DNA from: Candidatus Zapsychrus exili
GTDB lineage: Bacteria > Omnitrophota > Gorgyraeia > Zapsychrales > Zapsychraceae
Direction of reading: 5' to 3'
NCBI GenBank assembly: GCA_030765585.1
Contig: JAVCCJ010000015.1
Span: forward strand, 1-37,268
DNA length: 37,268 bases
Shown: one piece after another, positions 1 to 36,032 of the stretch
How the letters are laid out: every line of letters starts with the position of its first letter
How positions within the stretch are numbered: the stretch's first letter is position 1
The notes under the pieces: model-generated
The model's database searches: none
The model's input: the letters and a program-made list of their open reading frames with translations, nothing else
What the model was told of the DNA's origin: nothing
Made by a program: the position numbers and the translations under genes

Positions 1-3000
1 GTTTCTAACATTTTGCGGTTTTGGGATAGTTTAGATAAACAAACTTCGTTTATTAAGAATGTTCATACTTTGTCCAGTCTTAAAACATTAATAATCAATG
101 CAACATCTTTTGAGAAAGGTCCTGGCGTACATATTTTTCAAGTTAATAAGGAAAATCCTTTTAATTTTGTTGAATCTTCTAAAGCCCTGTTTCCTATCAA
201 AGATCGAGCGATGGTAAGTTCTGATTTTACGCTAGATAAAGAAAGTCTTGTTATTGGTCCTGTTTATGATGGTAGTGAACAAGAAAGAAAACAATTAGTT
301 AAAGATAAAATAAGCTCTATATTAGGTAAACTTGAAAGTTTTGATGAAGCAGATTCAGGAGAGTCTTTATACATAAAGAAGCAAGGTATTAATTATGTAT
401 TAGATTTGTCAGATTATGATTTAGGTTTGTTTGATTTTAGAATCTTCGTACATGGCGAAAGTGATAGAGATATTGGATTTTGGGTGAAAGTAATTTATGA
501 AGTGTCGGGAAAAGAGCATTTTGTAAATTATTTCTCAACAAAATCAGAAAATAATTTTAGCAGTCAAATTATATGGGAAACACAGGGTTTAATTCAATTA
601 TTGAAAGGTAATGAATTTGAAGTTCATAATAATATTAAAACTGCCCAAGCGTTTGATAGAAATTTTTGGGATGATTGGGATTTAGAACATAAATCTTATC
701 AAAGGTATCAACAAGAAATTCACCCAACAGCTGTTAATACGGTTGTTAATATTGTTAAGACGAAATTTAATAATAAATATGTAAATATATTTGATATCTT
801 TTCGGCTGATGGAAGTTTTGTAGAGAAATTAAGAAATGAATTATCAGAAAATAAAAAAATTAGTTATTCTCTCCTAGATGGTAGCAAGCAAGCATCTTTG
901 AAAGCAAAGCAAAAATTTGAAGATAAAGACGATGTTAATGTCTTGTCCTCACGAGATATACTGTCACTTGAGAGATTTGATAGTTTATTTCAATATAGGC
1001 CACAAATAGTAATAGCTATAGGCGGTCTTACTATTAATCCTTTAGAATCTAAAGAAGACGCCATTAAAATAGTTGAGATGGTTTATGAGCTTCTTTCTTA
1101 TGAGGGGTATTTTGTGGTCTCTGGGTTAACGAGGACTTTTTTAAATTCCAATGATTATAAAGCGATAAGTTTCAATGTAATAAATAAAAGTATACCGCAA
1201 CATTTCTTTTGGTATCAAGGACAAGATCTGCATTTGAAAGAACTTTATATTTTACGAAAACCAAATGAAGAATCTACTCGGGTCATTAGAGACCAAGCAA
1301 TGATGGCTGCAAAAAAAGCAAGATGGGCTTATGGCAGCTACGCAAAAATAACCCCACTCAAGATTATTACTTTTTTAAGTGTATTATTATCTCCCACATT
1401 GTCTTTATCACAGGAAAACACTATGTTCGAATCTAGCTTAGGCATATCTTTAAGCGAAGAGCAAAAAAGTAAATTTTATCCAGATATGTTTTATGTTGGA
1501 CAGGATACTTTAGGACAAAGGTACTCGTTTAAGGAGTATTATCGAAAAATATTTGATCAGCTAGGCGCTGGTAGTATTAAGCACATACAAAGTAAAGATC
1601 AGTGGAATGAAATTATATCCCGCTATGGCAATTTGCCTGAATATTTAGATGGATTTCTTGCTGAAGACTTTATTGATGAAAAATTTGTCTCATCTGTTTT
1701 TATAAATGAAACGGAAGCCAAAGCAAGTGCGCCAGAGACCTCCGATAGCGTTATTTATGCCAGAGAATCTCTTAAGATGATGTACGTTTCGGTGTATCCT
1801 TCGTATTTCTAAAATGCTGATTACAAACAGATTAAAAAACATTTTATAGGGGACAATAGAAATACATCAAAAGAGCGACGTTTGTTCTTTAGGAAAATGA
1901 TTAAATCTTTAAAAGAGCATTATCAAAATCATCTTGCAGCAGATGAAATATATTTGAGAGAGGAATTTTATGCACGATATTATAGTTATTATATAAATGG
2001 ATTGCTTGAAGAAGCGCCAGATGAAAGTTTGGGTGAAGATGCCAATCCAAACAAAAAGATACTTAATATATTTAGAGAATTTCAGAGTAAATTAAGTTCA
2101 GAGACTAAAGAATTAATATTAGATCATTATAAGACTTTGGGCTTTATTGTTGATAAAGAATACGACCAAGATCAATCTTTGCGCTACATTTGGCTTAATC
2201 AAATAAAAGGGGAATTTTTCGAGAGGAATGAAAGATTCGATATTATAAGAGACAGAATAAAAAGTGCTAAAGATTCAGTTGAGTATACGCATCAGGATAT
2301 GCCGTTGTATCCTTCTATCAATTATTATGAGAATGTTTTAGAAAAAATAGGGCTTAATGGTTTTAAATATATAAATGATTCAATTGCGTGGGGAAAAATA
2401 CGCAAAGGCTCTTTTGCTTCTTTTGTTGAAGAAATATATTTTTCTAGTTGGGATACGATAATGCCCGTATCTCCGATATTCATAGAAACATTTAAAGGGC
2501 ATAAAAATTTAAAATATTTCTTAACATCCCATGAAACAGTTCACGCTGTTCATTCCTACGCATATTCTCAGGAAAACATAGCTAATATTCTTGATGATAT
2601 TTCAATATCTTTTGTAAGAAATAGTTCTGATAAAAAGCTAGCAAAAGACTTTTTATTAAGAATGACCGATGTTCTTGCTTCTGCATATAAACAGCCTTCG
2701 CAGTTTCAGGTAGGATCTGAACTCTTAGCGTATTATTATGCATTTTATATTACAAATTTTATGGGTAAGTCAATTGAGCAAAAAGAAGCAGAGATAAAAG
2801 AAAAAGGCAAAGATCCTGATAACAATCTTTTCTTTATTTTTTATAAGTTTGATCAAATGCTGGATCAAGAAACACGAGATATAATTCATAGGCATTTAAA
2901 AGAATCTGGTCTTATTGTTGATAAATTTTATTTTGATGAACAATCTGTAGGATCATCTTTACGCGAAGATGCCACCGTTTATTTTAAGTCACAAGACGAT

Positions 3001-6000
3001 AAAGCAATGTTAGCAGGTGAAGATTTTCATATAGTTGCAAACGAGATTTTAGATGAGTTAAATTATTTATCAAGACAAGAGACAGAAGATGACAAGTATG
3101 TTTTGGAATTCTCAGGCAAAGAGTATGCTTCAATAAGACATATGGATATGTCCTCTCCAGAATTTCTTTTACAATATAGGGCGCAATCTAATCCTTCAAT
3201 TGTAGTTTTTCCCCAGGTGCCAGTAAATAAAAGCTTTATTCCTGAGATCTTGTTAAATGAAGGTTATTACTATGAATCAGAAGAGCATAAAATAGGCGAA
3301 CAGCAACAATATAATTATTATATTACAAGAAGGTTTAGTGAGGAAGATCGTAATTTAACGGCTGATGAGGCTAGATTTGTTTTGGCAGTTGTCGCAGATG
3401 ATGCTGGGTATAGCGATGCAGCTATAAAAATAATGTTTGATTTAGAAAATAAGCAAGACATCGTTGCTGAAACAGTATTAAAATTTTATGAGATAATTAC
3501 TAGTTCTAATGGAAGATATAAGGCAGTTGCTGGGCACTTAAGAGAAGCGTTCCAAATTAATGGTAGGCAGTTTGTTTATAATAGATATTTTGGGGATAAC
3601 AAATATGGATTGATTTCTGAGCATTTATTATTTGCTGTTAAAAGACTTCATGTTTTAAGTGAAAATGAAATAAATATTGATGAAGCAATGATAACGAACA
3701 ATAAAGATCAAACAGTAGGTGATTTTGAAATAAAATATGAAACAGGATCTGAAATAGGACTTGAGAAAATAGGCGAGTGGCTTAGTCAAAGAAAAGATGT
3801 AATCGACAAGAAGCCTGTTGTTATTGTGCTAACTGGTAGGCCAGCAGGCGGAAAGTCAACGCTTGTTAAAGCAATTTCCAAGGCGTTTTTAAAATCTCAA
3901 GGCGTTGATTATGACCCTTGGCAGCATACTTTAAATAGAATAAATGGATTTGAAGCTTTACAGTCCGAGCTTGAAGAGAGAGGTATTTATTATCAAAATG
4001 AGAAATTTGCTGACGATCCTTATGACAATTGGCCGCCAAAGCCTAAATGTGACTGGACGACAGCTAAAGAAAAGCAAGGTCTACATATTTTTGAAGTTAT
4101 TAGCAATAAAATTCCTAGATGGCTTAGGAGAAGAAAAAATACGCTTTTGATAAAAATGGATTCACCTGATGATATTACTTGGGAGAGATTGATAAAAAGG
4201 CATCCAGATATGACTGCAGAACGACTTGAACTGTTTTTTAGTGTAATAAGCGTTTATGACTTCCCTATTTTTACTCCGAAAAAACCTAAAAATTTTATTG
4301 AAGTTGGTAACGAGAAGAATCAGAAACATGAAAAGCTTGTGCAGGCTTTTTTAAATGGTTTTTCAAAAGTAGATGATGAGGCAATGATAGCGGATGAAAA
4401 ACTAAAAATACCTTTTATTTTTAATTTAACTCCAGAACTTGCTGAAAAAGGCGCAGATATGTATTTGTCGAAAGCTAAGAAAGCCCTTGTAGACAATAAA
4501 ACAGAAAAAGCTAGAAAACACTATAAGAGAGCATACTCACTATATATAAAAGCCATTGACCTTGATTATACTTTTTCTATGTTTAGCGAAGATGAAGATA
4601 GAGTGCCTAGGCTTAATAGAAAAGCAGAAAGACTGAGGGATGAACTTCTAACATTTGGATTTGATGATTTATTAGCTGTTACTAAAGAAGAGTTTATATT
4701 CTCTAATTTTTATAAGAAACGAAAAGGGTCTGATGTAAGCAAAAGCAATCTAACTAAATTTGGGAATATTACAACAGCGAGTTTTATCGGGGAGCCTTTT
4801 TATTTTATTTCTCAGGCATTAAAAAGAGATTACAATCGTCAAAAGGCGAAAGTTATCGAGAAATGTTTTTCAGAGCTTAACAACAATACAATGCGCAGAG
4901 GATCTGGGGGTAGATTTAAGAGCGCAAGTTTTTATAAAGACAAAAAAGATAGATATTTTGTAGAAATTACTTTTGAACAATATGGGGTCGCTGAGCCTCG
5001 ATTTTGGGATATGATCAAGGGCAATGTTGAAAAATCAAGAGAGCATGAATCATTTAAATTGGCAGGTGAGGAGTATACAGATATAAGAAAAGAAGGAATA
5101 GATTTTGTAGGTAAAGGAAGAGGTTTTAGAAGTGTTGCTAATCTTGCGAAAAATACAAGAATAGCAATAGGGTATGAAAGAGGTGAATTAGGCAAAATAA
5201 CTACAACACTTTTTGTTGATTTAGAGCCATTTTTAAAGAAAGCTTCTGATAAAGCAATGATAGCAGATAAAATCGATAGTGTTTTTATTAAGAATGTAGA
5301 TAAGCTAGATTGGGTTGCCGCGAAAGAGGTAGAACGGAGAGAAATTGTTAGAAATATTGAAGACGAGTCTATTTTAGAAACTCAAAATCAAAAGAATTAT
5401 TTTGCTAATAATATAGATATAAGAGAAATGTTCTTAGAATTTTTAATGAACGAAAAGTATAAGGATTTTGATGTTCTTAAAGAGCATTTGTTAAGATGGC
5501 ACAAAACTTTGATAATGGGTAAAGATGGAAATAGTATCTACACTCCTAATATAATGTCAGAAGAGGAGGCTATAGAACAGGCTGGAAAATTTGATAAAAT
5601 TATTTCTATAGAGGCAATTGATAAGAAAGTTAAAAATATTCAGAAAGATATAATCTTTTTTATGGAGTTTGATCCAGGTAGCGCCTATCCTCTTGAAGTT
5701 GTTGAAGCTGTAAATAGGGTTTTTGAAAGTTTTCATAAAGATTTGTGGTTATTTAAGAATGGCAATAATTCTTTATATATGAATATAGTTAATGCAATGT
5801 TGCGTTTACATGGATTGAAAAGCATTAGTCATTATCAGCTTGACGCTGGAGTTAAAGGCTCTCCTACAACCAGAGGTTTAGGAGTGGCTGGTATTAAGTT
5901 AGATAAAAATGATCCAACTCGTAATTTGCAAGCTGCTGTATTTGAAGCAAACCCATATCTTATAAAGAGTTCTGATAGAAAATATTTAATTGAAGAAGCT

Positions 6001-8895
6001 AAAAAAGCAATGCCATCTGTTAACAGTAAAGAGAAGAATTGGACTCATTTTAATAAAATAATAGAAATTTTACGCAAAAGAAAAGATACGGAAGTAGCTG
6101 TAATCGGCGGAGTAGATTTTAGTGTTAGTGAAAACCCTCTAATTTACAGGATTGTTGATCAGGTGCATCCTTATGGATCATATGTAGATGCGCTGGAGTC
6201 TGATGGTTTTAAAGTGATTTTAGGTAGTGCAGAATCTGTATTTTTAAAGCATATATTTGATAATATTTTATATCAACACGTTAGGTCAAGCTTGGTGTTT
6301 GTAATAAAAGAGAGATATGCAAATTACAACAAGATAACTATTGTTGATAATGGAGAAGGGTTTAAGGATAAGAAGGATCAGTATGTTCTGATTTTAGACG
6401 CTATTAAGCGTGGAAATTCTTTTGGTGACGGCGGCGATCTTGGCACAGGCTTTACACAAGTATTTAACTCAGGAGTTGATTATATATCTATTACAGGCTC
6501 AAAAGAATGGGTAATACTTGAGGGTTCAAATAAGAATAATAGGGAGAATTTTATGCCGCTTGTGTCTGGTAAAGAAGCTGCTAAACATGGAACAGTTATA
6601 GAAGGATATTTTTTAAATAATAATTGGTCAATATTTAATAATATTTCTAAGCGTAGAATTAGAAAAACATTTTCAAAAGATAATATTTTATCTGTGGGGC
6701 AATCAAAGAAAACGTTCGAGGATTTATTGGGTTCTTCAAAAGATCAGGCGATGATAGCAGAAGGATATAATATATTTGATTATAGAAAATTTGTGGATGA
6801 TGGTTACACAGAATATGTAGCAGGAGGTAGTAGGCTCTTATTTACACTGCTTAGGAACAAATATGATAAATTGTCAGAGCTAGAAATTTATTCTATTAAT
6901 GTTATTGATTTAAATACAAGGCAAGCAATTGGTTATCTTGATTTTAGTATTAATACAGAAGAGTTAATAGCCGGGGCAGATTCAAATGCAAATCTTAATT
7001 GGATATCAGGTGATTATGGATTGCCTAATTATATAAAATATTATGGAGTTGGCATTAAGGATATGATGTCTATTCGGACAAAAGATAACGGCAAATCTCG
7101 TGCTGTTGGATTTTTTATTAAAGAAGAATATAGGAATAATCCAAAGGTAGAGGCTAGTGAGAATAAAAATATTTGGAATTTGGATAAATTGCTTATGGAA
7201 ATAGCTTTTTCTATTTCTAAAGACGAGGGAGTTAAAGAAGAATTTCGCATTCTTCCTACATCTAAGAAAATAGATTATTATAAAAATAATTATGGTGCTA
7301 CTGAAATGATAGGTAATGGAGCTTGGCATAAAATTATGTTGGAGGAAAATTCGAAATCTTTCGCTATAAGATTGGGCAAAAATATTGATGGAAAAGTTTC
7401 AAAGATGTTTGTAGAAAATAGTCCGTTAAGCAGAGGGGTTAAGCTTGTAAGAAATTTAGAGAATTTTAAAAGTTTTATTGCAGGAGTGGATGAGCAGCCT
7501 ACTTCATATAATGAATTTGAGTATCGAGAAGTTGTTGATTTTAGTCCGTTTTTATTTAGCGCAGATGTTGGGAAAATTATCAATGAAGCAATTGCTGAGA
7601 TTAATCGCAGATATCATAAATCTTATGATAGGAAATTTTATGGTAGAACATACGACAAAGTTTCATATTTAGGTAAAAAGAAGATAAGTAAATTAGAGAA
7701 TATTATTGAAAAATTAATGCCAGTTTATAAAGAATATAAGGTGCATGCTTCTGTCGAAAATAAAGGACAACTGTTTAATCAACTTCTTTTTACATTGCAC
7801 TTAGATAGTAAGAAAGAGCCTGAATATTATATTTTGCTTGAAACAAATAGAGATGATATATGGGAGGTTTCGTCAGGCCCGTGGGCTGACGAAGACATTA
7901 AAGGTGAGACAGTAGAAACAGCAGTTAAGGATTCTGATTTCGCGCTTATGGCGGATAGCGAGGAGGATATAGGGAACACTAGAACTTTAGACTACTGGCG
8001 AAATCATTCTGAAATTAATATTATAGAAGGAGGGAAAGAAGGTATCACTCCTGAGGAAGAAGAAATTGAGGCTTTACGTGTGGTTGATAAAAAAGGAAGT
8101 GTATATAAGAATGTGTACATTTCCAAGAAACATGCGCATCAGCGTGGATTTTGGCATCAGACAGCACATGTCTATGCATTTTATAAAGGAAAGTTGCTTA
8201 TTCATAAACGCAGTAATAAGAAGGATACATCAAAGAATAAGCTTCAAGTATCATTTGGCGGACATGTGGATTTTGAAGATAAAAGCTTAAAAGATGCCGC
8301 ACAAAGAGAAGGGTCTGAAGAGTCGGGGATAAAGCTAGACGAAAAACGTTTGATTCAAGTATCAGATATTAATGCTATTAGGAGAGAATATAAATTGGAA
8401 GATGGATTTAATCGTGAATTCTCTACCATTTTTATTTATGAATTAAATGATAGCGAGCTTAAAAGTTTAGAAAAAAATTACAATATAAATGAAATTGATG
8501 AATTTTGGTTATTGCCATTTAAAGTCTTTGAAGAAATGACAGATAAAACTCCAAATCTTTTTTCAAGAAGTTTAAATCATATTGTTCGCGAAGGTAGAGA
8601 TATTTATGAGACTATAAAACAAAAGGCTGTTCAATCTGACAATGCGCTTATGGCAGAAGAAGTAGGTGGTATTGACTTTAATACTTCAGAATTAGAGATA
8701 AAAGAGATGGGAGAGAAAATAGAATTTGATGTTAATATTGATATCAAAGCTCTAGAAAATGCAACAGGATTTGTACCTGTAATTATAAATATTACTCCAA
8801 TAACAAACCTTCCTATGTTTTTAGGTTTGAACAATAAAGAAAAACTTCCTAAGCAGGAATTGGCTTCTAAAGACATGGCCTACCTAAAACCTTAA
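1..8895 (+). CDS. Giant modular multidomain protein, 5'-truncated by the window, with one in-frame TAA at 1810-1812 (joins track ORFs 13..1812 and 1882..8895)
   Basis: Frame 1 is open from base 1. Both track ORFs are in frame 1, and 1813-1881 has no further stop (NADYKQIKKHFIGDNRNTSKERR). A duplicated domain spans the stop. Recognisable motifs: HETVH, GRPAGGKST, DNGEGF/GTGF, Nudix box, and repeated DxAM linkers. Confidence 0.8.
202..8655 (+). repeat. Dispersed in-frame linker motif D-x-A-[ML]-[IMLV]-[AST], 9 copies (starts 202, 1291, 2998, 3679, 4375, 5248, 6742, 7936, 8638)
   Basis: DRAMVS, DQAMMA, DKAMLA, DEAMIT, DEAMIA, DKAMIA, DQAMIA, DFALMA, DNALMA read directly from the translation. 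Spacing is 227-569 codons. Confidence 0.85.
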
Positions 8896-14480: not shown

Positions 14481-14960
14481 ATGAGGGATCTGTCTCGATC
14501 TCAATTTGATACTTTACTATCTATTCTTACAACAGTTATTGTTGTGCTAGTTGATCGTCTTACCAAAATTTTCTTTATAGATTTGCTTTCCTATGGAGAA
14601 TCTCTTCCAGTTATTCGCAATTTCTTTCATGTAACATTGGTTTATAATACAGGTATAGCTTTTGGACTCTTAAAAGATAATGGAGTCGTTTTTCTGATAG
14701 TTCCTATTATTGCAGTTGCGCTTTTGGCCTACAATATCTTTTATTATAAACAAAATAATGAAGTATTAAGTCGTTCTTATATTTTTGCTTTTTCTTTGAT
14801 ATTAGGTGGAGCAATGGGGAACTTGATTGATAGAATTAATTATGGTTATGTAATTGATTTTATTGATTTTCGTATTTGGCCTGTTTTCAATATTGCAGAC
14901 AGTGCAATAACAATAGGTGCAATAATAATAGCTATCAAGTGTTTTCATCCTGACAAGTGA
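14481..14960 (+). CDS. lspA: Lipoprotein signal peptidase (signal peptidase II)
   Basis: YNTGIAFG, GGAMGNLIDR, VIDFIDF, WPVFNIADSAI. Confidence 0.96.
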   Translation: MRDLSRSQFDTLLSILTTVIVVLVDRLTKIFFIDLLSYGESLPVIRNFFHVTLVYNTGIAFGLLKDNGVVFLIVPIIAVALLAYNIFYYKQNNEVLSRSYIFAFSLILGGAMGNLIDRINYGYVIDFIDFRIWPVFNIADSAITIGAIIIAIKCFHPDK

Positions 14961-14985
14961 CAAAAGACCATTGACAAGTGACAAA
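14951..14985. repeat. Heptamer-period tandem repeat (TGACAAG-type), left flank of the four-helix-bundle gene
   Basis: TGACAAG TGACAAA AGACCAT TGACAAG TGACAAA. Confidence 0.75.
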
Positions 14986-14988
14986 AAA

Positions 14989-15348
14989 ATGAGAAATTAT
15001 AAAAATATTAATGCGTATAAATATGCAGATAATTTTATGATAGAGGTTTATAAAACAACGAAACATTTTCCTCAAGATGAAATCTATGGAATAACATCTT
15101 AGTTAAGAAGAGCAGTTGTATCAATCGCAACAAATATAGCCGAGGGAGCTAGTCGTCAGCATAAGAAAGATTATTTAAATTTTCTTTTCATATCTAGAGG
15201 CTCTTTATCTGAGACGGAATGTTTATTGAATTTATCAAATAGATTGGGTTATTTAAAAAATGGTGAGTTTGAGCATTTAAATCAAATTAAAGAAAATATA
15301 TCAAAGGCATTGTTTGGTCTTATTGAAGCTGTTAAGAAAGAAGTTTAG
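14989..15348 (+). pseudogene. Four-helix-bundle protein (23S rRNA IVS-like, TIGR02436 family) with in-frame TAG at 15100-15102; missed by the ORF track
   Basis: My translation: MRNYKNINAYKYADNFMIEVYKTTKHFPQDEIYGITS*LRRAVVSIATNIAEGASR...SRGSLSETECLLNLSNRLGYL. The stop replaces the conserved Gln of 'YGLTSQLRRA' (CAG>TAG). Confidence 0.88.
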
Positions 15349-15351
15349 TTT

Positions 15352-15386
15352 TTAGTCAGCTGTCAATAGTCACTTGTCATCAGTCA
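15352..15386. repeat. Inverted heptamer-period repeat, right flank of the four-helix-bundle gene
   Basis: GTCACTTGTCA (15369-15379) is the exact reverse complement of TGACAAGTGAC (14951-14961 and 14972-14982). Confidence 0.75.
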
Positions 15387-15391
15387 AAAAA

Positions 15392-16131
15392 ATGTTTCCT
15401 ACGATTTGCAAAATTGGATCACTAACAGTTTATTCTTATGGAATGATGTTGGCACTCGCCATTATTGTCTGTTCTTTTTTATTGACTAGAGAAGCAAAAA
15501 AGAATGGTATAAACAAAGATTTTATTATGGATCTAATTTTCTTTTCTGTTGTAAGCGGTATAGTGGGTGCACGCTTATTTTTTATTACGTTAAATATTAA
15601 TTTTTTATACAAAATCCATTAGAGATAATAATGATTCATCATGGCGGCTTGGCATGGCAAGGTAGTTTAGTATTTGGTGTGTTTGGAGGGATATGGTTTA
15701 TAAAAAGAAAAGGCTTAAGTATTTTAAAGGTGCTTGATTTGACTGCCCCGTATATTGCTTTGGGACAGGCAATCGGTCGGATTGGATGTTTCTTAAACGG
15801 ATGTTGTTATGGAAAGCTTTCTAATGTTGGTATTTATTACCCCGTACATCAAGAGACTCTTATCCCTACACAGCTTTATTCTTCTTTAGGGTTATTTTTA
15901 ATCTTTTTAATTTTAAAGTTTTATAAAAAATATTCTAGTCGTGACGGAGAAGTTTTTGTGTTATACCTTATCTTTGCTCTTACGTTTCGTTTTTTTATAG
16001 AATTTTTAAGAGCAGATCATTATGAATTTTTATTTGGTTTAAGTATCTATCAACTTGTTTGTTTATCACTTTTTTTAATTTCAACTTATGTCTACACACT
16101 CATTAAAAATAAATCAAGAAAATCATCATAA
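15392..16131 (+). CDS. lgt: Prolipoprotein diacylglyceryl transferase, frameshifted at the T-run 15601-15606 (joins track ORFs 15374..15622 and 15631..16131)
   Basis: MFPTICKIGSLTVYSYG, GARL, GGL, LGQAIGRIGCFLNGCCYG, PTQLY, RFFIEFLR. Adding one T gives a continuous LNINFFIQNPLEIIMIHHGG. Confidence 0.9.
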
Positions 16132-25186: not shown

Positions 25187-25633
25187 ATGGAAAGATTTAA
25201 AAGAACATCTAACAAACAATTGGGAGAACTCCTTATTGAGCGCGGCGTTATTACTCGCGAACAATTGAAGGTTGCTATTGATAAACAAAAGCAACAAAAA
25301 GGAGGTCTTATTGGTGAAATTCTTGTTAATTTGAATTTTGCTACAGAAAAGGATATTGCTCAGGTTCTTACCTGTCAGTATGGATTTCCGTATCTTCCTT
25401 TGTCTAATTATGATATTGATCAGGAAGTGATTAGTTCTGTTCCAGAAAACGTTTGTCAAAAACATTGTTTAATTCCAATCGATAAAATTGGAAAAAGTCT
25501 CACGCTTGCTATGGCTAACCCTCTTAATGTACAAGCTTCAGAAGATGTTGAATTGGTTACAGGTTGTATTGTACAAATTTTTGTTAGTACAGCAACAGAA
25601 GTGCAGCAGGCAATAGATAAGTATTATAAATAA
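25187..25633 (+). CDS. Stand-alone MshEN/T2SSE_N-domain protein
   Basis: LGELLIERGVITREQLKVAIDKQ and IGEILV repeats, LAMANPLN; no ATPase domain. Confidence 0.85.
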   Translation: MERFKRTSNKQLGELLIERGVITREQLKVAIDKQKQQKGGLIGEILVNLNFATEKDIAQVLTCQYGFPYLPLSNYDIDQEVISSVPENVCQKHCLIPIDKIGKSLTLAMANPLNVQASEDVELVTGCIVQIFVSTATEVQQAIDKYYK

Positions 25634-25736
25634 TAAACCCTAAACCCTAAACGCGAAATCCTAAATAAACACAAAGTATAAAATTAAAATTATTTAAAGT
25701 TTTATTGTTTTGATTTTGTTTAGTGTTTAGGATTTT
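25634..25736. repeat. Heptamer tandem repeats with an inverted partner and no gene between
   Basis: TAAACCC TAAACCC TAAACGC GAAATCC TAAATAA ... GTTTAGTGTTTAGGATTTT. Confidence 0.6.
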
Positions 25737-25745
25737 ATTCCAAAT

Positions 25746-27491
25746 ATGTCTTCCCTTAAAGAACGCCTACAAAATATACTTCTTCGTGATAAGTTAATTT
25801 CTCCTGAGGATCTTGATATCGCTCTTGCTGCTCAAAAAGAAACAGGTGGAGAACTTAGCAAAATACTTTCCCAGCTTAATCTTATTGATCAAGATACATT
25901 GTCTCAGGCTTTAAGTGAGGGCCTAGGCTTACCCCCAATAAATATTTCCCGTCTTTCTGTTGATCCAAAAGTTATTGGTATCATTCCTTATGAAATTGCT
26001 CAGAAGTATAAGATTATGCCAATCTCTTTATTAGGTGATCAACTTACATTAGCTATGGCTGATCCGCTTAATATTTTTGTAATAGACAATGTTAAAGCAT
26101 TGACTGGTTTTACGATAGTTCCAATCATAGGTCGTACAAAAGATTTAGAAGAGGCTATTAGAAAATATTATGAAGAAGGTGCAGATGATGGTGATTCAGA
26201 TGAGAAATTTAATGAAATTATTCAAGACATCAAAAGCGTTGAAGATTTAGAACTGGTGTCTGAATCTGGTTTGGGAGGGTCTACAGAAGTTGTTGGCGAA
26301 ATTTTAGAAGAAGCTCCTATCATTAGATTAACAGACACAATAATACAGCAGGCAGTATTAGCTAAGGCTAGTGATGTTTTTATAGAACCTCTAGAAAAAA
26401 CGCTTCGTATTCGATATAGAATTGATGGTCTTATTCGAGAAATTGATAAAATGCAAAAATTCTTGCATGCTCCAATTGTCTCAAGAATAAAGGTCATATC
26501 TAATTTAGATATATCCGAACATCGTCTTCCACAAGATGGAAGATTTAAAACAGTGACTTCTGGTAAATCTGCGGTTGATTTTCGTGTTTCTGTTTTACCT
26601 ACAGTGTTTGGGGAAAAAATTGTTTTAAGGGTTTTAGATCAGCAAGGAACTGTTTTAGATGTTGATAAATTGGGATTTGAACCCGAATCATTAAAAAGAC
26701 TTAAAGCCTGTGCTATTAAACCTCATGGTTTGATTCTGGCTTGTGGACCAACAGGGTCTGGTAAAACAACAACACTTTATTCAATATTAAAATATATAGA
26801 TTCTCCAGATAAAAATATTGTAACTGTTGAGGATCCTGTTGAGTATCAATTTAAAGGAGCAAATCAGGTAAACATTAAACCATCTATGGGTTTGACTTTT
26901 TCGGCTAGTCTTCGTTCTATTTTGCGTCAAGATCCTGATGTTATTATGATAGGTGAAATTCGCGATAAAGAAACTTTAGATATAGCTGTTAAAGCAGCTT
27001 TGACAGGACATTTGGTTTTAAGTTCTTTGCATACTACAACTGCAGCAGGATCAATTGTACGTATGACAAATATGGGTATAGAACCATTTTTAATCTGCTC
27101 ATCTGTGCTTGTCATAGTCGCGCAAAGGCTTCTTCGTAAAATTTGTCCTAAGTGCAAAGAAGAATATACTTTATCAGAAGATGTTGCGAAAAAAATAGGT
27201 TTAACAAAAATATCGAAAAAGAAGACACACAAATTATATAGAGGAAAAGGATGTAAACATTGTTTTGATATAGGATACAAAGGTAGAGTGGGAATTACAG
27301 AAGTACTTATTCTTACAAACAGAATAAAAGAATTAATTTTGTCTGGAGCAAGTGAGGCAAGAATAAAGCAGACTGCAAGAAAAGAAGGAATGAAGACAAT
27401 GAGAGAAGATGGCTTGGCAAAGACGTTAGAAGACTTAACGACTCCAGAAGAAGTAATGAGAGTAACAGCTCCTGATGAGGAATTAAAATAA
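25746..27491 (+). CDS. pilB: Type IV pilus / T2SS assembly ATPase (PilB/GspE family), copy 1
   Basis: ASDVFIEP, RLPQDGR, GPTGSGKTT, TVEDPVE, LRQDPDVIMIGEIRD, TGHLVLSSLH, four-Cys zinc motif. Confidence 0.92.
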   Translation: MSSLKERLQNILLRDKLISPEDLDIALAAQKETGGELSKILSQLNLIDQDTLSQALSEGLGLPPINISRLSVDPKVIGIIPYEIAQKYKIMPISLLGDQLTLAMADPLNIFVIDNVKALTGFTIVPIIGRTKDLEEAIRKYYEEGADDGDSDEKFNEIIQDIKSVEDLELVSESGLGGSTEVVGEILEEAPIIRLTDTIIQQAVLAKASDVFIEPLEKTLRIRYRIDGLIREIDKMQKFLHAPIVSRIKVISNLDISEHRLPQDGRFKTVTSGKSAVDFRVSVLPTVFGEKIVLRVLDQQGTVLDVDKLGFEPESLKRLKACAIKPHGLILACGPTGSGKTTTLYSILKYIDSPDKNIVTVEDPVEYQFKGANQVNIKPSMGLTFSASLRSILRQDPDVIMIGEIRDKETLDIAVKAALTGHLVLSSLHTTTAAGSIVRMTNMGIEPFLICSSVLVIVAQRLLRKICPKCKEEYTLSEDVAKKIGLTKISKKKTHKLYRGKGCKHCFDIGYKGRVGITEVLILTNRIKELILSGASEARIKQTARKEGMKTMREDGLAKTLEDLTTPEEVMRVTAPDEELK

Positions 27492-27519
27492 TAACAAGAA
27501 TGAAGTCTTACAATTTACT

Positions 27520-29232
27520 ATGCGATCAAGAAATCTAAAAGAAGAAGCTATACAAAATTTAATTAAGGCTCAGAAAATAAAGAAAGAAGACTTTAATAGA
27601 GCTGTAGCTTTGCAAAAGAAAAAAGGTATTAGCTTAGATAAGGCTTTAATAGAAGAGGGGTTGATAAAAGAAGAGGACGTGTTGATGTCTCTTGTGAAAG
27701 AACTCAATGTTCCTTTTATTAATCTTAATAAGTATAAAATAGATCCAGATCTTAAGGATTTGGTTTCTCAGAAAGTTGCTAGACAATATAAGATAGTTCC
27801 TGTTTCATGTCTTGGAGATACTTTAACAATAGCAATATCAAATCCTTTAAATGTTTTTGTTATTGATGATTTAAAGAATATTACAGGAAAGCAAGTAGAA
27901 TTAGTAATGACGACAGAGTCAGAAATTCTAAAAGCTGTTGAGAATTATTATGAATTTAAATCAGAGACAAGTGTAACAGATATCAGCAAAGATATTGATA
28001 GTGAAGATTTTGAAATTGTTATTTCGCAAGACGATGAAGAAGCTGTAGGAAGCGGCGCTGTTAATGAAAGTGAAAAGGCTCCTATTATCAGAATGGTTAA
28101 TTTGATAATAGAGGAGGCTCTTAAACAAAGGGCGTCGGATATTCATATTGAACCTACAGCAGAGGGTGTGCGTGTTCGTTATCGTATTGATGGAGCTTTA
28201 AGAGATATTTTAGAGGTTCCTAAAGAAAATCAGAATGCAATAGTTGTAAGAATTAAGATTATGTCACGTTTAGATATAACAATGAGCCAAATTCCTCAGG
28301 ATGGAAGGTTTAAGTTAAAGATTTCTGGTAAGGAAATAGATTTCCGTGTATCACTTCTTCCTACTACATTTGGTCAAAAAGTTGTTATGCGTATTTTAGA
28401 TAAAAGAAATTTATCGGTTGGATTAAATGGATTAGGTTTCGGTAAAAAAGATTTAAAAACTTTTGAAAGCTCAATATATAAACCATTTGGTATGATTTTG
28501 GTTACAGGACCAACAGGATCTGGAAAATCAACGACTCTTTATTCTATTATAAGCGAGTTAAATACGGTAGAGAGAAATATTATTACTGTAGAAGACCCTG
28601 TTGAGTATTTAATAGAAGGCCTTACACAAATTCAGGCAAGGCCAGAGATAGGATTAACATTTGCAGAGGGTTTGCGTTCTATTTTGCGTCAAAGTCCTGA
28701 TGTTGTTATGGTAGGTGAGATTCGCGACAATGAGACTGCAGACATTGCTATCAAGGCGTCTTTAACTGGACAGTTGGTTTTATCAACACTACATACAAAT
28801 GATGCTGCAGGAGCTTTAACTAGACTTGTTGATATGGGAGTAGAACCTTTTTTAGTAGGCTCTAGTTTGGTTTTGGTTACTGCTCAAAGGCTTTGCAGAA
28901 AAATATGTTCTAACTGCAAAGAATCTTTTGATGTTGACGACAAGATCCGAAAACAGTTTAAATATAAATTTAAAACTAAGGCAGTTTTATATAGAGGAAA
29001 AGGATGCAGCGCTTGTAATGATACTGGATATATGGGTAGAGTTGGAATAACAGAGATATTGGAAATTGACGACACTATTCGTGAGATGCTTATAAATGGA
29101 GATTCATCAGATCAGATTAAAGAATATGCGATGAAAGAGAAAAATATGACAACATTATGGTCAGATGCTATGGATAAGTGTGTTTCTGGTACGATAACAT
29201 TAGAAGAAGTATTAAGAGTTACGTCAGAATAA
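27520..29232 (+). CDS. pilB: Type IV pilus / T2SS assembly ATPase (PilB/GspE family), copy 2
   Basis: ASDIHIEP, PQDGR, GPTGSGKST, LRQSPDVVMVGEIRD, four-Cys zinc motif. Confidence 0.92.
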   Translation: MRSRNLKEEAIQNLIKAQKIKKEDFNRAVALQKKKGISLDKALIEEGLIKEEDVLMSLVKELNVPFINLNKYKIDPDLKDLVSQKVARQYKIVPVSCLGDTLTIAISNPLNVFVIDDLKNITGKQVELVMTTESEILKAVENYYEFKSETSVTDISKDIDSEDFEIVISQDDEEAVGSGAVNESEKAPIIRMVNLIIEEALKQRASDIHIEPTAEGVRVRYRIDGALRDILEVPKENQNAIVVRIKIMSRLDITMSQIPQDGRFKLKISGKEIDFRVSLLPTTFGQKVVMRILDKRNLSVGLNGLGFGKKDLKTFESSIYKPFGMILVTGPTGSGKSTTLYSIISELNTVERNIITVEDPVEYLIEGLTQIQARPEIGLTFAEGLRSILRQSPDVVMVGEIRDNETADIAIKASLTGQLVLSTLHTNDAAGALTRLVDMGVEPFLVGSSLVLVTAQRLCRKICSNCKESFDVDDKIRKQFKYKFKTKAVLYRGKGCSACNDTGYMGRVGITEILEIDDTIREMLINGDSSDQIKEYAMKEKNMTTLWSDAMDKCVSGTITLEEVLRVTSE

Positions 29233-29357
29233 TTTTATGTTGTGTATGTGTTTTATAAGTTAGATTTTTATTTAAAGGTCATTTTCTTGTTTTAAACAAT
29301 TGTTTTAATGGTAGAATAAAATATAATTTAAATAATAAAATTAAAAGCTTTAAAAAT

Positions 29358-29807
29358 ATGTGTTTTGAGAAAAAACAAACTATACCCAAGAAAGAGCTTT
29401 TGGGGGAAATATTAGTAAAGAGAGATTTGGTTTCGCGTGAGCAATTAGACAAGGCTCTTGAAATACAAAAAGAAGAAAGTCGCTATATAGGAGATGTTCT
29501 AGTCCAACATGGGTTTGTAGAAGAAAAAGATATTGTTGTAGCTTTAGTTGTACAATGTAATTTGCCGTACATAGCAATTGATCAATATGATATAGATAAA
29601 AATATTGTTAATATTATTCCAAAAGATGTTGCCATAGGATCTAATATTATTGCGCTTGAACAAGTAGGAGATGTGTTAAGCGTTGTTATGGCAAATCCTT
29701 TAGACCTTGTTTTAAGAAAGAATTTGGAAAAAGTAACTAAGTTAAAGATAGCTCCTTTTATTGCAACAAGAAATGAAATTAATAAAGCAATAGAGAAATC
29801 TTATTAA
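29358..29807 (+). CDS. Stand-alone MshEN/T2SSE_N-domain protein, paralog of 25187..25633
   Basis: LGEILVKRDLVSREQLDKALEIQ..IGDVLVQHG, LPYI, VMANPLD. Confidence 0.85.
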   Translation: MCFEKKQTIPKKELLGEILVKRDLVSREQLDKALEIQKEESRYIGDVLVQHGFVEEKDIVVALVVQCNLPYIAIDQYDIDKNIVNIIPKDVAIGSNIIALEQVGDVLSVVMANPLDLVLRKNLEKVTKLKIAPFIATRNEINKAIEKSY

Positions 29808-29825
29808 GATAGGAGACAAAATATT

Positions 29826-31031
29826 ATGTCTACATTTAAATATACTGCTAAAGATCAAAACTCACAAAGTCGCACTGGAAAAATAGTAGCAGATAATAAA
29901 GATGCTGTAATAGAACAGTTGAGGAAGCATAATTTAATTATTATATCTATTACAGAAGTAAAAGAGGCTGCAGAGAAACAATCTTCATTTTTAAGCAAAA
30001 AGATAAAGCCAGAAGATATAGTTATATTTGCTCGTCAGTTGGCAACTATGGTTGATGCGGGTCTTCCTGTTTTGCAAGCATTGGACGCTTTGGCAGAGCA
30101 GATAACTCATCCTGTATTTAAAAAGACTGTAACAACTATTGGGCTAGATATTCAGCATGGTAGTAGTTTATCTGTAGCTTTTTCTAAACATCCAAAAGTT
30201 TTTGATACGCTTTTTGTTAATATGATAAAGGTAGGTGAAACAGGTGGTGTTTTGAGCAAAGTATTGGATCGCGTCTCAAATTATATGGAGAAGAGTCTTA
30301 AATTAAAGAGAAAAGTAAAATCCGCGCTCGTTTATCCGGCTGTTATAGTTTCTATGGCAACAGTTATTACCATAGGTCTTTTGGTTAAGGTTGTTCCTAC
30401 TTTTTCTAAAATATATGATTCGTTTAATAAAGAACTTCCTTTTATGACAAAGATTCTTATAGCTACGAGCGATGTCCTTAAAAAAGGTTTACCGTTTATG
30501 GTTGTTGGCATTATTGCTATTATTTTTGCAGTTAAGAAAATATATAAAACAGAAAAAGGTGGGAAGATAATTGATAGTTTTATTTTAAAAATGCCTGTGT
30601 TCGGAGATCTTATACGTAAATTTATTATAAGTAGATTTAGCAGAACATTAGCTACTTTAGTTCAAAGCGGAGTTCCTATTTTAGAGTCTTTAAATGTTGT
30701 TCAAAAGACGATTGGTAATAAGGTTTTAGAAGATGTTATAGAAGATGTTAAAACTCATGTAAAGGAAGGCGAAAGCATAGCTGCTCCTTTAGGGAGAAGC
30801 GGAGTTTTTCCTCCAATGGTTACTAGAATGATCGAAGTTGGAGAAAAGGCAGGTAAAATGGAGAGCATGTTGCTTAAGATATCTGAATTTTATGATGATC
30901 AGGTGGATGCTGCGGTAGAGGGATTGACGAGTATTATTGAGCCGCTTATTATAGGGGTTCTTGGTATTGTTATAGGTTTTATTGTTGTTGCTTTGTTTTT
31001 GCCTATTTTATCTATTACTCAACTTATTTAA
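29826..31031 (+). CDS. pilC: Type IV pilus / T2SS inner-membrane platform protein (PilC/GspF)
   Basis: FARQLATMVDAGLP, VGETGG, ALVYP, FSRTLATLVQSGVP, IEPLII. Confidence 0.95.
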   Translation: MSTFKYTAKDQNSQSRTGKIVADNKDAVIEQLRKHNLIIISITEVKEAAEKQSSFLSKKIKPEDIVIFARQLATMVDAGLPVLQALDALAEQITHPVFKKTVTTIGLDIQHGSSLSVAFSKHPKVFDTLFVNMIKVGETGGVLSKVLDRVSNYMEKSLKLKRKVKSALVYPAVIVSMATVITIGLLVKVVPTFSKIYDSFNKELPFMTKILIATSDVLKKGLPFMVVGIIAIIFAVKKIYKTEKGGKIIDSFILKMPVFGDLIRKFIISRFSRTLATLVQSGVPILESLNVVQKTIGNKVLEDVIEDVKTHVKEGESIAAPLGRSGVFPPMVTRMIEVGEKAGKMESMLLKISEFYDDQVDAAVEGLTSIIEPLIIGVLGIVIGFIVVALFLPILSITQLI

Positions 31032-31045
31032 TTTAAACTTTTTAT

Positions 31046-32008
31046 ATGAAAAAAAATATTCTAATAATAATTTTTGTATACACTTTTTTAGCTTCTACTT
31101 TTGTATTTGCTGGTAGTTTTGATTATGAGGTAGATATTATAAGAGAGAAGATTAGAAAACTTTCCGAAAGAAACATATTGCTTACAGGAGAAACTAAGTT
31201 ATTAAAAGAAAATGTTGAGTCGTTACATAAAGAATTAGATAAATTAAAGAAAGAATTATATAAAACGAAAAATGAGATTGTAGCAAAAAGAAAAGAACAA
31301 AAGCGTTTGTCAGAAAAATCAGCATCTGAGGTACTTTTATTAAAGGAACAAGAAGCAAGATTGAGACAAGATTCTTTGCAGGTGAGCAAAGAATTGGTAA
31401 GGCTTGAACAAGAACTTAATATTCGTCAAAAGCAGAGCGAAGAATTTGAGTCTAATATGAGTGACATTAATAAGCAGATAGATGATTTGCGTAATAAGGT
31501 AGCGTCTTTAGGAGATGAAGACAATAGACAAAAAGAAATGATTTTAAGGGAGATAAGAAAATCTGAAAAGAATCTTAAGATTGCAAAAAGAAAGTTTAAG
31601 CAAATTAATAAAAAACATAAAAAACCTTTGAATGAGGTGAACAATCTAAAGAGCGATAATTTTGCTTTAAAGCAAAAATTAATAGTTAATCAAAATAGCT
31701 TAAACGTTCTTTTGGAGAAAGAAAGAATTTATTTTAATGAATATAGCAATTTGTCTGGTGTAAATAAGAACAGATCTAAAGGTGCGGATAATAAAATTAT
31801 TAAGTTAACGTCACAAAAAGAAAAGTTAGAAGATATTTTAGAGGAAGCAAACAATAGATTAAAGTCTAAGAATTTGAGGCTGGATTTATCCGAACAAAGA
31901 CAAGGCTTAAAAGATCTCAGTTCTAGGTTAAAGACTATTAAAGACGAGAATGAAGCGTTGAAGAAAAAGTTTACTATATTAAGAGAAGCCTTGGAGAGTG
32001 TAGAATAA
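31046..32008 (+). CDS. Exported coiled-coil hypothetical protein
   Basis: Signal-peptide-like MKKNILIIIFVYTFLASTFVFA followed by a long K/E/L-rich coiled coil. Confidence 0.7.
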   Translation: MKKNILIIIFVYTFLASTFVFAGSFDYEVDIIREKIRKLSERNILLTGETKLLKENVESLHKELDKLKKELYKTKNEIVAKRKEQKRLSEKSASEVLLLKEQEARLRQDSLQVSKELVRLEQELNIRQKQSEEFESNMSDINKQIDDLRNKVASLGDEDNRQKEMILREIRKSEKNLKIAKRKFKQINKKHKKPLNEVNNLKSDNFALKQKLIVNQNSLNVLLEKERIYFNEYSNLSGVNKNRSKGADNKIIKLTSQKEKLEDILEEANNRLKSKNLRLDLSEQRQGLKDLSSRLKTIKDENEALKKKFTILREALESVE

Positions 32009-32062
32009 AAAGCCAAAAGAAAGTTTTCTATTTCTATTTCTTTGAAGCGTTATATTGTTTTT

Positions 32063-34028: not shown

Positions 34029-34181
34029 TAAATAGATGAAGAGTGTTTTGTTTGGGTTTTGTTATTTTGATCTAGTCTTATGATTAAGTTTGATATGAGA
34101 CAATTTGGGAATATGTTTATTTCTAGTTTTTTTGGCAAATCGATATTTTATATGCTACACTTTATATGTAGATAGCAATTG

Positions 34182-34267
34182 AAGTGAAAAAGGTAAACCA
34201 TTCGTAAGAGTGGGACACAAAACTAAAGGGCCCAAACGGAAATAATGTGGGTAGCTAGTTACCGCTT
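34182..34267 (+). ncRNA. Cyclic di-GMP-I (GEMM-I) riboswitch aptamer
   Basis: GGTAAACCATTC-GTAA-GAGTGGGACACAAAACT...GGTAGCTAGTTACCG closely matches the Vc2-type consensus. P1 is AAGTG/CGCTT, with a GNRA tetraloop. Confidence 0.92.
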
Positions 34268-34284
34268 AGATTAAGCAAAATGTG

Positions 34285-34320
34285 ACCTATTCTTACAATG
34301 TAAGAGTAGGTTTTTTTATT
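34285..34320 (+). terminator. Intrinsic terminator forming the riboswitch expression platform
   Basis: ACCTATTCTTAC-AAT-GTAAGAGTAGGT followed by a T run. Confidence 0.85.
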
Positions 34321-34377
34321 GTAAATTATTGAATTTAAAGGTTTTAGCGGAGGAAGGGTAAATTTAACTTAAAATGT

Positions 34378-34407
34378 TTGACATATAAAGGAGGTGAGTG
34401 CTAAGAT
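34378..34407 (+). promoter_or_regulatory. Possible second sigma70 promoter upstream of the major pilin
   Basis: TTGACA (34378-34383), 18-nt spacer ending TGC, then TAAGAT. Confidence 0.35.
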
Positions 34408-34599
34408 TCTAGAGTAGAGGAAGATAAATTTTAACCTGAGCTTAGGGATTTAATTGATTAAAGAGATAAGGTAGAGCAAAGAAGGCAGTAAAACGTCATT
34501 ATTCTTAATTCTTTTATCATTTCTTGTTTTCCCTTAAATTAGTTAGTCAGTTTTCCTAAAAGCTCAAAATCCCCTAATATTAGGGAAAAGGAGAAAGAA

Positions 34600-35016: not shown

Positions 35017-35060
35017 TGACACTGAAGTTTTGTGTGTAAGTTTTAATTATTGTTTATATA

Positions 35061-35090
35061 AAGGGGGCTTGACAAAGCCCCCTTACTTTT
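35061..35090 (+). terminator. Hairpin terminator/attenuator after the major pilin
   Basis: AAGGGGGCTT-GACA-AAGCCCCCTT then ACTTTT. Confidence 0.7.
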
Positions 35091-35103
35091 GTGGAGAAAA
35101 TAA

Positions 35104-36014: not shown

Positions 36015-36032
36015 ATATTAATTTGTAAAAAA

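What the first reader, a model, noticed from the sequence alone, without database searches (positions are those of the whole stretch)
1..8895. Giant 'polyprotein' of unrelated enzyme modules punctuated by a conserved DxAM linker: candidate undescribed effector-array system
Seen: one frame of at least ~2960 codons in which D-x-A-[ML]-[IMLV]-[AST] recurs nine times, with spacings of 363, 569, 227, 232, 291, 498, 398 and 234 codons. The copies fall between, not within, recognisable domains. The order is methyltransferase-like, tandem zincin-like, unknown, P-loop kinase, helical+GHKL-like, Fic-like+GHKL, GNAT-like, Nudix, tail. Known: MARTX toxins carry effector strings released by proteolysis, and Omnitrophota are reported to carry giant genes and host-dependent or predatory traits. 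Inference: the linker is a processing site or module-junction signal, making this a cargo array of host- or prey-modifying enzymes that is secreted and cut into units. I know of no formal description of this linker.
Basis: partly seen in the sequence, partly recalled or inferred. Interest (0 to 1): 0.92.

Follow-up and report, generated by a model that had tools for sequence, protein, structure and literature searches.

The report
Clasped, punctuated Omnitrophota enzyme polyprotein
This gene is the broken tail end of one member of a very large, apparently undescribed family of exported Omnitrophota proteins, in which a fixed head and tail appear to lock together around a swappable string of normally cytoplasmic enzymes separated by a short Asp-x-Ala-Met motif that behaves like a cutting site, although cutting has not been shown.

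Summary
The nine D-x-A-M-type motifs are real (9 against 0.04 by chance). The frame is not one ORF: a stop lies at 1810-1812, probably a strain variant, and the gene start is off the contig.

The gene belongs to a family of about 20 scattered paralogues in this genome, with 8,314 clusters in public data: signal peptide, ~320-aa head with no matched fold, variable cargo, ~65-aa GGIDLN tail. Head and tail are predicted to bind (0.84, controls 0.00), making the cargo a loop.

Motifs avoid folded blocks, bracket whole glycolytic enzymes, and are followed by signal-peptide-like segments (30 of 63 after, 4 before). Other genomes use SSP[VIL] at the same junctions. Cargo is tenfold depleted in cysteine, as expected after export.

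Best reading: an exported precursor cut at the motif by a separate, lineage-specific protease, possibly inside prey. Cutting, protease and destination are unshown. It is not MARTX. No description turned up in six paper searches; the scan noted this family and motif before on other DNA.

The parts
1..8895 (+). 3' part of a head-cargo-tail polyprotein gene; 5' end (signal peptide, head domain) lies off the contig; interrupted by one in-frame stop
202..219 (+). junction motif 1 (DRAMVS)
220..1290 (+). module: methyltransferase-like (weak hint only)
   Evidence: NCBIfam E 0.012; Pfam E 0.25
1291..1308 (+). junction motif 2 (DQAMMA)
1363..1401 (+). internal signal-peptide-like hydrophobic segment, 24 aa after motif 2; the most hydrophobic 13-mer of the frame; same layout after SSPL in homologue P0269
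1429..2172 (+). zincin-like repeat 1 (HExxH not intact), containing the stop
   Evidence: E 2e-13 to P0269 across the break read as X
1810..1812 (+). in-frame TAA; present in the contig of run X1, sense codon in one low-depth contig of run X2
2191..2997 (+). zincin-like repeat 2 with HExxH (HETVH)
   Evidence: E 2e-16
2998..3015 (+). junction motif 3 (DKAMLA)
3016..3678 (+). module of unknown family; a weak homologue in G260 also lies between two motifs
   Evidence: (E 3e-4)
3679..3696 (+). junction motif 4 (DEAMIT)
3697..4374 (+). P-loop nucleoside/nucleotide-kinase-like module; homologue in G252 ends at DNAML
4375..4392 (+). junction motif 5 (DEAMIA)
4393..5247 (+). helical part plus GHKL-like part; homologue in G264 ends at SSPV; also present in an 85,816-aa frame of G276
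5248..5265 (+). junction motif 6 (DKAMIA)
5266..6741 (+). two modules with no motif between them: a ~200-aa unit ('Fic-like', unconfirmed) that is motif-bracketed on its own in P0214, P0055 and C80, and a GHKL/HATPase-like unit that is SSPV-bracketed on its own in G264
6742..6759 (+). junction motif 7 (DQAMIA)
6760..7935 (+). module shared with paralogue C103, starting at the motif in both ('GNAT-like' unconfirmed), plus an unassigned part
7936..7953 (+). junction motif 8 (DFALMA)
7954..8637 (+). Nudix hydrolase module
   Evidence: Pfam PF00293 E 2.6e-9
8638..8655 (+). junction motif 9 (DNALMA), 9 aa before the tail domain
8665..8850 (+). conserved C-terminal GGID[LF]N...G..P.I..I.P domain, predicted to clasp the head domain

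Best explanation
The gene encodes an exported precursor polyprotein. Step 1 (inferred, well supported): an N-terminal Sec-type signal takes the whole chain out of the cytoplasm. Step 2 (predicted): the ~320-aa head and the ~65-aa tail fold into one 'clasp' domain, which can close only once the last residues have been made, so the cargo hangs as a loop; the clasp is probably the handle for a downstream export or delivery machine. Step 3 (inferred): a separate protease, not the clasp, reads the lineage's junction motif (D-x-A-M-hydrophobic-small here, S-S-P-[VIL] elsewhere) and cuts at or next to it, freeing each module with a new N-terminus. Step 4 (weakest): release happens where ATP, NAD and a secretion machine exist, most plausibly the cytoplasm of a host or prey cell, where glycolytic, nucleotide and signalling enzymes redirect metabolism and signal-bearing modules go to the membrane. 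Modules are exchanged between genes at the junctions. This copy is interrupted by a stop in the assembled strain.
For: Architecture: 16 head and 16 tail domains in this genome; 8,314 clusters at 50% identity; 47 of 251 genomes of the phylum. Motif: D.AM 412 against 26.9 expected, E.AM 28 against 33.2; top de novo motif with SSP[VI]. Boundaries: 1 of 46 motifs inside blocks homologous to housekeeping enzymes (12.0 expected) and 29 of 286 inside family-shared blocks (102.6 expected); GAPDH-GAPDH | PGK | enolase and UGPase | PFK | PGI lie between motifs; all three motifs of the modelled paralogue fall in segments with pLDDT under 50. Both cargo ends are marked: 14 of 16 tail domains have a motif 7-18 aa upstream. 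New N-termini: 30 of 63 hydrophobic segments start within 60 aa after a motif, 4 before, null 11.8%. Export: cargo Cys 0.11% against 1.19%; 9 against 70 in paired alignments, GAPDH keeping one Cys. Clasp: score 0.84, best control 0.00; the mark was reached by 116 of 157 solved complexes and 2 of 215 mismatched pairs; runs agree in at least 87% of contacts; partner pLDDT at least 69. Reader in trans: dialects exclusive per protein (61 DxAM-only, 24 SSP-only, 0 both, of 240) and largely per genome; 13 label changes on the head tree and no diagnostic column; six DxAM also lie in this genome's 9,937-aa giant, which has no head domain.
Against: No cleavage product, protease or RNA evidence was obtained. 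155 of 240 cargo regions have fewer than 3 copies of either motif, and only 47 of 162 complete proteins have a motif at both cargo ends. Some junctions lack a motif (GAPDH-GAPDH; the two units at 5266-6741). Only about 26% of shared-block ends lie within 20 aa of a motif (null 11%). The first motif of the modelled paralogue precedes a strand that is itself part of the predicted clasp. Only 2 twin-arginine-like motifs were found, 1 after a motif. No delivery machine or protease gene flanks the paralogues consistently (read from N-terminal sequences only). The head tree was a quick tree whose well-supported branches force only 2 changes. The host is unknown, and at least 5 of about 20 genes here are interrupted.
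Confidence: 0.55

Rival explanations
1. Exported but not cut: the motif is a binding site for a chaperone, a translocation motor (such as the SecA-like modules of the giant proteins) or a modifying enzyme, and the chain stays an intact tethered multi-enzyme string at the cell surface or host interface.
For: All boundary, enrichment, dialect, cysteine and clasp results fit a non-proteolytic reader equally. SSP resembles a modification site. In the giant protein the DxAM cluster has spacings of 35-321 aa in a region with no Pfam domain.
Against: Hydrophobic signal-like segments sit after, not before, motifs (30 against 4), which is simplest if the motif creates an N-terminus. The enzymes carried are oligomers (recalled) joined by linkers of about 10-25 aa, awkward in an uncut chain.
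Confidence: 0.22
2. Cut at the motif, but in the producer's own periplasm or on its surface; the modules work there or in a contact zone, not inside another cell.
For: Same evidence for cutting and export as the best explanation; no injection apparatus was identified beside the genes; a dialect that follows the genome fits a self-encoded protease.
Against: Kinases, GAPDH, PGK, PFK and receiver domains need ATP, NAD or cytoplasmic partners, which a periplasm normally lacks (established knowledge); signal-like segments after motifs would have no secretion machine to act on from outside.
Confidence: 0.13
3. The junction is mainly a DNA feature: a short recombination or gene-conversion site through which modules are shuffled, the peptide being a by-product.
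For: The Ala codon of the motif is biased to GCG: 33 of 91 against 51 of 307 in head domains here (P 1e-4), 69 of 157 against 494 of 1,695 in other genomes (P 2e-4). Shared modules end at motifs.
Against: GAT and GAC interchange freely while Glu is not enriched; all four Ala codons occur; SSP uses both TCN and AGY serine codons; the favoured codon differs between genes (GCG in L039, GCC in L072). The bias is about twofold and fits copying of linkers as a secondary effect.
Confidence: 0.06
4. The Met of D-x-A-M is an internal translation start, so the gene behaves as a fused operon.
For: Met at the fourth place in 84 of 91 motif copies; signal-like segments follow.
Against: Shine-Dalgarno-like words precede 5 of 85 motif ATGs, 41 of 592 other internal ATGs and 8 of 21 gene starts. 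The SSP dialect has no Met, yet signal-like segments follow it too.
Confidence: 0.04

Closest known systems
Omnitrophota giant multi-enzyme proteins (Archaeovorins, 10.1101/2023.11.21.568195; multi-enzyme metabolic class, 10.64898/2026.06.07.730766)
   Same: Same phylum; same cargo types (methyltransferases, Nudix, HATPase, GNAT, sugar-phosphate enzymes); cleavage into separate products was proposed there; one module of this gene occurs in an 85,816-aa frame of G276, and DxAM occurs six times in this genome's 9,937-aa protein.
   Different: This family is 750-5,000 aa, multi-copy, nearly free of hydrophobic segments (63 in 257,659 aa) and bounded by a head and tail domain not found in the giants of this genome. 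Text searches of the two preprints gave 0 hits for 'linker' and 'polyprotein'; the 2023 one says cleavage points are unknown.
MARTX toxins (recalled)
   Same: Conserved ends around a shuffled string of enzyme domains that are released one by one by proteolysis.
   Different: No RTX/MARTX repeats or cysteine protease domain found; Sec-type signal instead of a C-terminal type I signal; no invariant Cys or His in head or tail; cargo rich in central-metabolism enzymes.
Type IX secretion cargo of Bacteroidota (recalled; comparison prompted by e1-1079412)
   Same: Sec signal plus a short conserved C-terminal domain shared by many unrelated cargos.
   Different: Here the tail is predicted to complete a fold with an obligatory N-terminal head; no Pfam or NCBIfam CTD hit; internal junction motifs have no T9SS counterpart that I recall.
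Viral polyproteins with conserved cleavage sites (recalled)
   Same: One short motif at protein junctions, strict at two or three positions.
   Different: Chromosomal, multi-copy, exported, with no protease recognised in the chain and with lineage-specific dialects.
DUF1598 (PF07643) proteins of Planctomycetota
   Same: Atlas structure search gives TM 0.59 by query (0.43 by target, 254 aligned) between the head and a cluster in which 97% carry DUF1598.
   Different: No sequence-level match; both sides are predicted models; function unknown; no paper found for DUF1598.

Membership tests
MARTX toxin | N- and C-terminal glycine-rich MARTX/RTX repeats | tested here: not met
   No such Pfam or NCBIfam hit in the window or in 23 paralogue ORFs; head and tail alignments are non-repetitive.
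MARTX toxin | Internal cysteine protease domain (C80) that cuts the chain | tested here: not met
   No peptidase C80 hit; no invariant Cys or His in head or tail; the frame has 2 Cys in 2,964 codons. The missing 5' part of this copy could not be examined.
MARTX toxin | Type I secretion genes nearby, no Sec signal | tested here: not met
   Complete paralogues begin with a signal-peptide-like sequence ending A-x-A/S-x-A-Q (read by eye); neighbours are housekeeping genes.
Polymorphic toxin systems (CDI, Rhs, MuF and similar) | Variable C-terminal toxin with an adjacent immunity gene | tested here: not met
   The C-terminus is the conserved part; the next gene in the window is a 229-aa YggS/PLP-homeostasis-like gene (named by eye); no recurrent small downstream gene among paralogues, though only ORFs of 120 aa or more were listed.
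Type IX secretion cargo | C-terminal CTD sorting domain | tested here: not met
   Tail scanned alone: no Pfam hit, no NCBIfam hit below E 0.14.
Type IX secretion cargo | por/spr machinery in the genome | not tested
   Not searched.
Omnitrophota giant proteins (Archaeovorin type) | Length above 30,000 aa, many transmembrane helices, SecA-like and C39/S8 domains | tested here: not met
   Family members are 744-4,969 aa among the best 150 hits; no SecA, C39 or S8 hit. Cargo and motif are shared.
DUF1598 | Match to PF07643 | tested here: inconclusive
   Structural likeness TM 0.59; no profile match in 91 head domains or over the cut-off in the genome.
Proteolytically processed polyprotein (mechanistic class) | Cleavage at the junction motif | not testable with these tools
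   Only indirect evidence.
Head-cargo-tail family (this report) | Tail domain preceded by a motif | tested here: met
   Tail HMM E 1.8e-29, with this sequence in the training set; 21-50% identity to 73 tails from other genomes; motif 9 aa upstream.
Head-cargo-tail family (this report) | Signal peptide plus head domain | not testable with these tools
   Off the contig end; no contig overlap of 15 bases or more links C39 to a head-bearing contig.

The most novel reading that the evidence does not exclude
An undescribed delivery route of predatory or parasitic Omnitrophota: Sec-exported polyproteins are sealed by a split head-tail clasp of new fold that serves as a completeness check and handle, are passed into a host or prey cell, and are cut at a lineage-specific peptide code into active glycolytic, nucleotide and signalling enzymes and membrane-targeted modules that take over the prey's metabolism; the same code operates in parts of the phylum's giant proteins.
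Probability: 0.35. Interest if true: 0.95.

Novelty: categorically new. Interest (0 to 1): 0.8.

Why it matters
Whether Omnitrophota's very long multi-enzyme proteins are cut is an open question in print; the 2023 preprint says that cleavage points are unknown. The motif gives exact candidate sites, and the shorter clasped family (from about 750 aa) gives expressible test substrates. If right, it is a bacterial polyprotein export system with a new fold, thousands of members and a swappable peptide code, and it shows how an abundant uncultured phylum may manipulate prey metabolism. Splitting the proteins at the motif would also improve annotation: database entries are now named after single cargo enzymes.

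Tried and rejected
Alternative genetic code for the stop: rejected; in-frame breaks in this genome's family genes are TAA (C39), TGA (C83) and TAG (C67), and downstream genes read normally.

Joining C39 to its 5' half by contig overlap: none found. Orthologue with the same module order: 4 of 40 relatives matched, each weakly over one module.

Fold identity of the head: Foldseek gave no match at E up to 0.001; best VIA-align Z 4.5, rmsd 3.4, 86 aligned; sequence search of PDB gave only E 0.85. Searches with the full-length model returned only the cargo's helical bundle. A weak match does not prove a new fold. Atlas search of the tail: no usable hit.

Head or tail as the motif reader: no diagnostic column (best separation 0.58-0.59). 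A second signal peptidase as reader: one S26 gene only. ATP/ADP translocase search rang nowhere, controls included, so it is uninformative. Intermediate dialects SSA, SSG and DxP: not enriched; DxSM (2.3-fold) and SSPM (6-fold, 5 copies) are. My idea that DxAM and SSP are one DNA site read on opposite strands: not supported by codon use. No RNA holder listed. A 2,931-base skip in one X1 contig (22 letters on the short side) does not fall at motifs and was ignored. 40 kb of the G276 giant frame showed no DxAM, SSP or RSExR punctuation, so not all giants use these motifs.


Full report
Observation. Frame +1 holds nine D-x-A-[ML]-[IMLV]-[AST] motifs at the reported spacings; shuffles give 0.037 on average and never more than 2 in 10,000. 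The frame is broken by TAA at 1810-1812 and is open at the contig's 5' end. Read with X at the break, the region aligns across it to a homologue with the same HExxH repeat (P0269, E 2e-13 and 2e-16). Of three runs laid, the contig of X1 has the stop, one contig of X2 (depth 3) has a sense codon, and no listed piece of X3 spans it. A strain-level nonsense variant is likeliest. At least four other family genes here are also interrupted (C67, C73, C83, C119).

The family. The motif is concentrated in 25 ORF pieces, about 20 genes: 71 strict copies in 34,021 aa, against 13 in 411,835 aa of other ORFs of 300 aa or more (the list was first drawn partly by motif count, then confirmed by end domains). 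Complete members (9 of 25 pieces) have a signal-peptide-like start, a ~320-aa head ending P-K-K-Y-F-S-G-G, variable cargo and a ~65-aa tail starting G-G-I-D-[LF]-N; 16 heads and 16 tails were found. The genes are scattered among housekeeping genes. The head profile finds 8,314 clusters at 50% identity and 47 of 251 genomes of the phylum, 18 of 20 in the same order. Of 79 loci from named genomes, 56 are titled Omnitrophota, 22 'uncultured Planctomycetales' and 1 'bacterium'; MreB of three Planctomycetales-labelled and two Omnitrophota genomes is 89-91% identical to the window's, so these look like one lineage. No Pfam family fits the head.

The motif marks module ends. In one paralogue two GAPDH units, PGK, enolase and an aldolase-like unit lie between motifs; in another UGPase, PFK, PGI and PGM. 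In 240 non-redundant cargo regions (255 before removing near-duplicates; 257,659 aa), 1 of 46 motifs fell inside blocks homologous to housekeeping proteins (12.0 expected) and 29 of 286 inside family-shared blocks (102.6 expected). Against this, only 26-27% of 183 block ends lie within 20 aa of a motif (null 11%), and 155 of 240 regions have fewer than three copies of either motif. The window's modules recur elsewhere in other orders with the same ends: the kinase in G252, the unit after motif 6 between PGI and a receiver domain in P0214, the unit after motif 7 in C103. No relative has the same string.

A code with dialects, read at protein level. De novo counting in 145,456 aa of cargo gave D-x-A-M (240 against 14.9) and S-S-P (156 against 21.6) as top words. 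No protein has three of both. Near tail domains, G252 shows DxAM in 15 of 16 loci and SSP in none; G264 shows SSP in all 4 loci read, with one DxAM. The same GHKL-like unit ends at DKAMIA in the window and at SSPV in G264. Asp is strict (E.AM 28 against 33 expected) while its two codons interchange. A twofold GCG bias at the Ala suggests that linkers are copied at DNA level, but it varies by gene. Dialect does not follow the head tree (13 changes on 64 rows; quick tree; at least 2 forced) and no head or tail column separates dialects. The 9,937-aa giant of this genome, which lacks head and tail, has six DxAM; its other giants and 40 kb of the G276 giant have almost none.

Signs of new N-termini and of export. 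Of 63 hydrophobic segments in cargo, 30 begin within 60 aa after a motif and 4 within 60 aa before (null 11.8%); many have basic residues ahead, some a lipobox-like Cys (judged by eye). The window has one after motif 2, and P0269 has one after SSPL ahead of the same zincin module. Internal initiation is unlikely. Cargo cysteine is 0.11% against 1.19% in other ORFs, and 9 against 70 in 18 paired alignments; each GAPDH keeps one Cys, in the recalled catalytic ASCTTN motif.

Head and tail form a clasp (prediction). AlphaFold2 models the head at pLDDT 80.6, with no match among solved structures and a likeness to Planctomycetota DUF1598 proteins (TM 0.59). In a 757-residue model of the shortest paralogue, head and tail are confident and all three motifs lie in low-confidence segments. 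As separate chains head and tail score 0.84, best of 3 controls 0.00; the mark was reached by 116 of 157 solved complexes and 2 of 215 mismatched pairs; runs agree in at least 87% of contacts; partner pLDDT at least 69. The counts hold only roughly, as my own alignment was used; I found no solved look-alike that the model could recall. The closest contacts join the tail's invariant GGID to the head's invariant WVNL, VWI and QDY residues. This was modelled on a paralogue, as this copy's head is missing.

Mechanism. Shown: motif, family, boundaries, shuffling, dialects. Predicted: clasp. Inferred: Sec export; cutting by a trans-acting protease; release in a compartment with ATP, NAD and a secretion machine, most plausibly a host or prey cytoplasm. 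Confidence in export plus cutting is about 0.65-0.7; in the whole chain with delivery to another cell about 0.35-0.55. Rivals are an uncut tethered chain, cutting in the producer's own envelope, a DNA recombination site and internal starts.

Literature. Six searches found no description of the motif or family. 10.1101/2023.11.21.568195 (passages and section 7) proposes cleavage of giant proteins and says the points are unknown. 10.64898/2026.06.07.730766 (passages and section 21) treats proteins of 10,000 aa or more and has no hit for motif, linker, polyprotein or cleavage. PMC10066038 (passages) gives the predatory or parasitic background. Supplements were not read (those of the preprints are closed), subscription papers are not searched, and the original Velamenicoccus proteome paper was not seen; any of these could bear on novelty. 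MARTX, type IX secretion and viral polyproteins are recalled, not looked up. The scan's own notes report this family and both dialects on other DNA; in the few lines shown of them I saw no head-tail complex test and no polarity count.

Verdict. A real, apparently unpublished architecture with testable cut sites. This copy is truncated by the assembly and interrupted by a stop, so a complete paralogue is the better experimental subject. Interest 0.8.

Noticed in passing
G000:C80:14983-23955 (L009:3984-12956): Paralogue carrying GAPDH twice (no motif between), PGK, enolase and an aldolase-like unit in pathway-like order; its head is nearly identical to that of C83, which carries UGPase, PFK, PGI and PGM. 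Together they cover much of glycolysis.
   Followed up: partly
G000:C24:37451-109729: Four consecutive very long ORFs (9,937, 3,548, 2,776, 7,894 aa) that overlap or abut; the DxAM copies cluster at residues 5686-6263 of the first.
   Followed up: partly
G000 C67, C73, C83, C119, C13:472-3654: Several family genes are interrupted by single stops or frameshifts, or lack a tail; decay, strain variation and assembly error were not told apart.
   Followed up: partly
   Followed up: no
P0269 (database protein): Divergent family member whose tail starts GGIDF but continues as a different, longer helical-looking domain: a second tail type.
   Followed up: no
window 25187-37241: Type IV pilus or type II secretion cluster (two PilB/GspE-like ATPases, PilC-like protein, prepilins; named by eye) 16 kb downstream; no link to the polyprotein was tested.
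   Followed up: no
window 14960-16131: The lgt-like ORF is listed at only 166 aa after a 670-base gap; it may have an upstream start or be broken.
   Followed up: no
L021, L028, L031 and 19 other loci: Records titled 'uncultured Planctomycetales' carry the family; the three tested have MreB 89-91% identical to the window's, so the labels are probably wrong.
   Followed up: partly
all complete members: Two motifs often lie 16-46 aa apart right after the head; the strand between them is predicted to be part of the clasp.
   Followed up: partly
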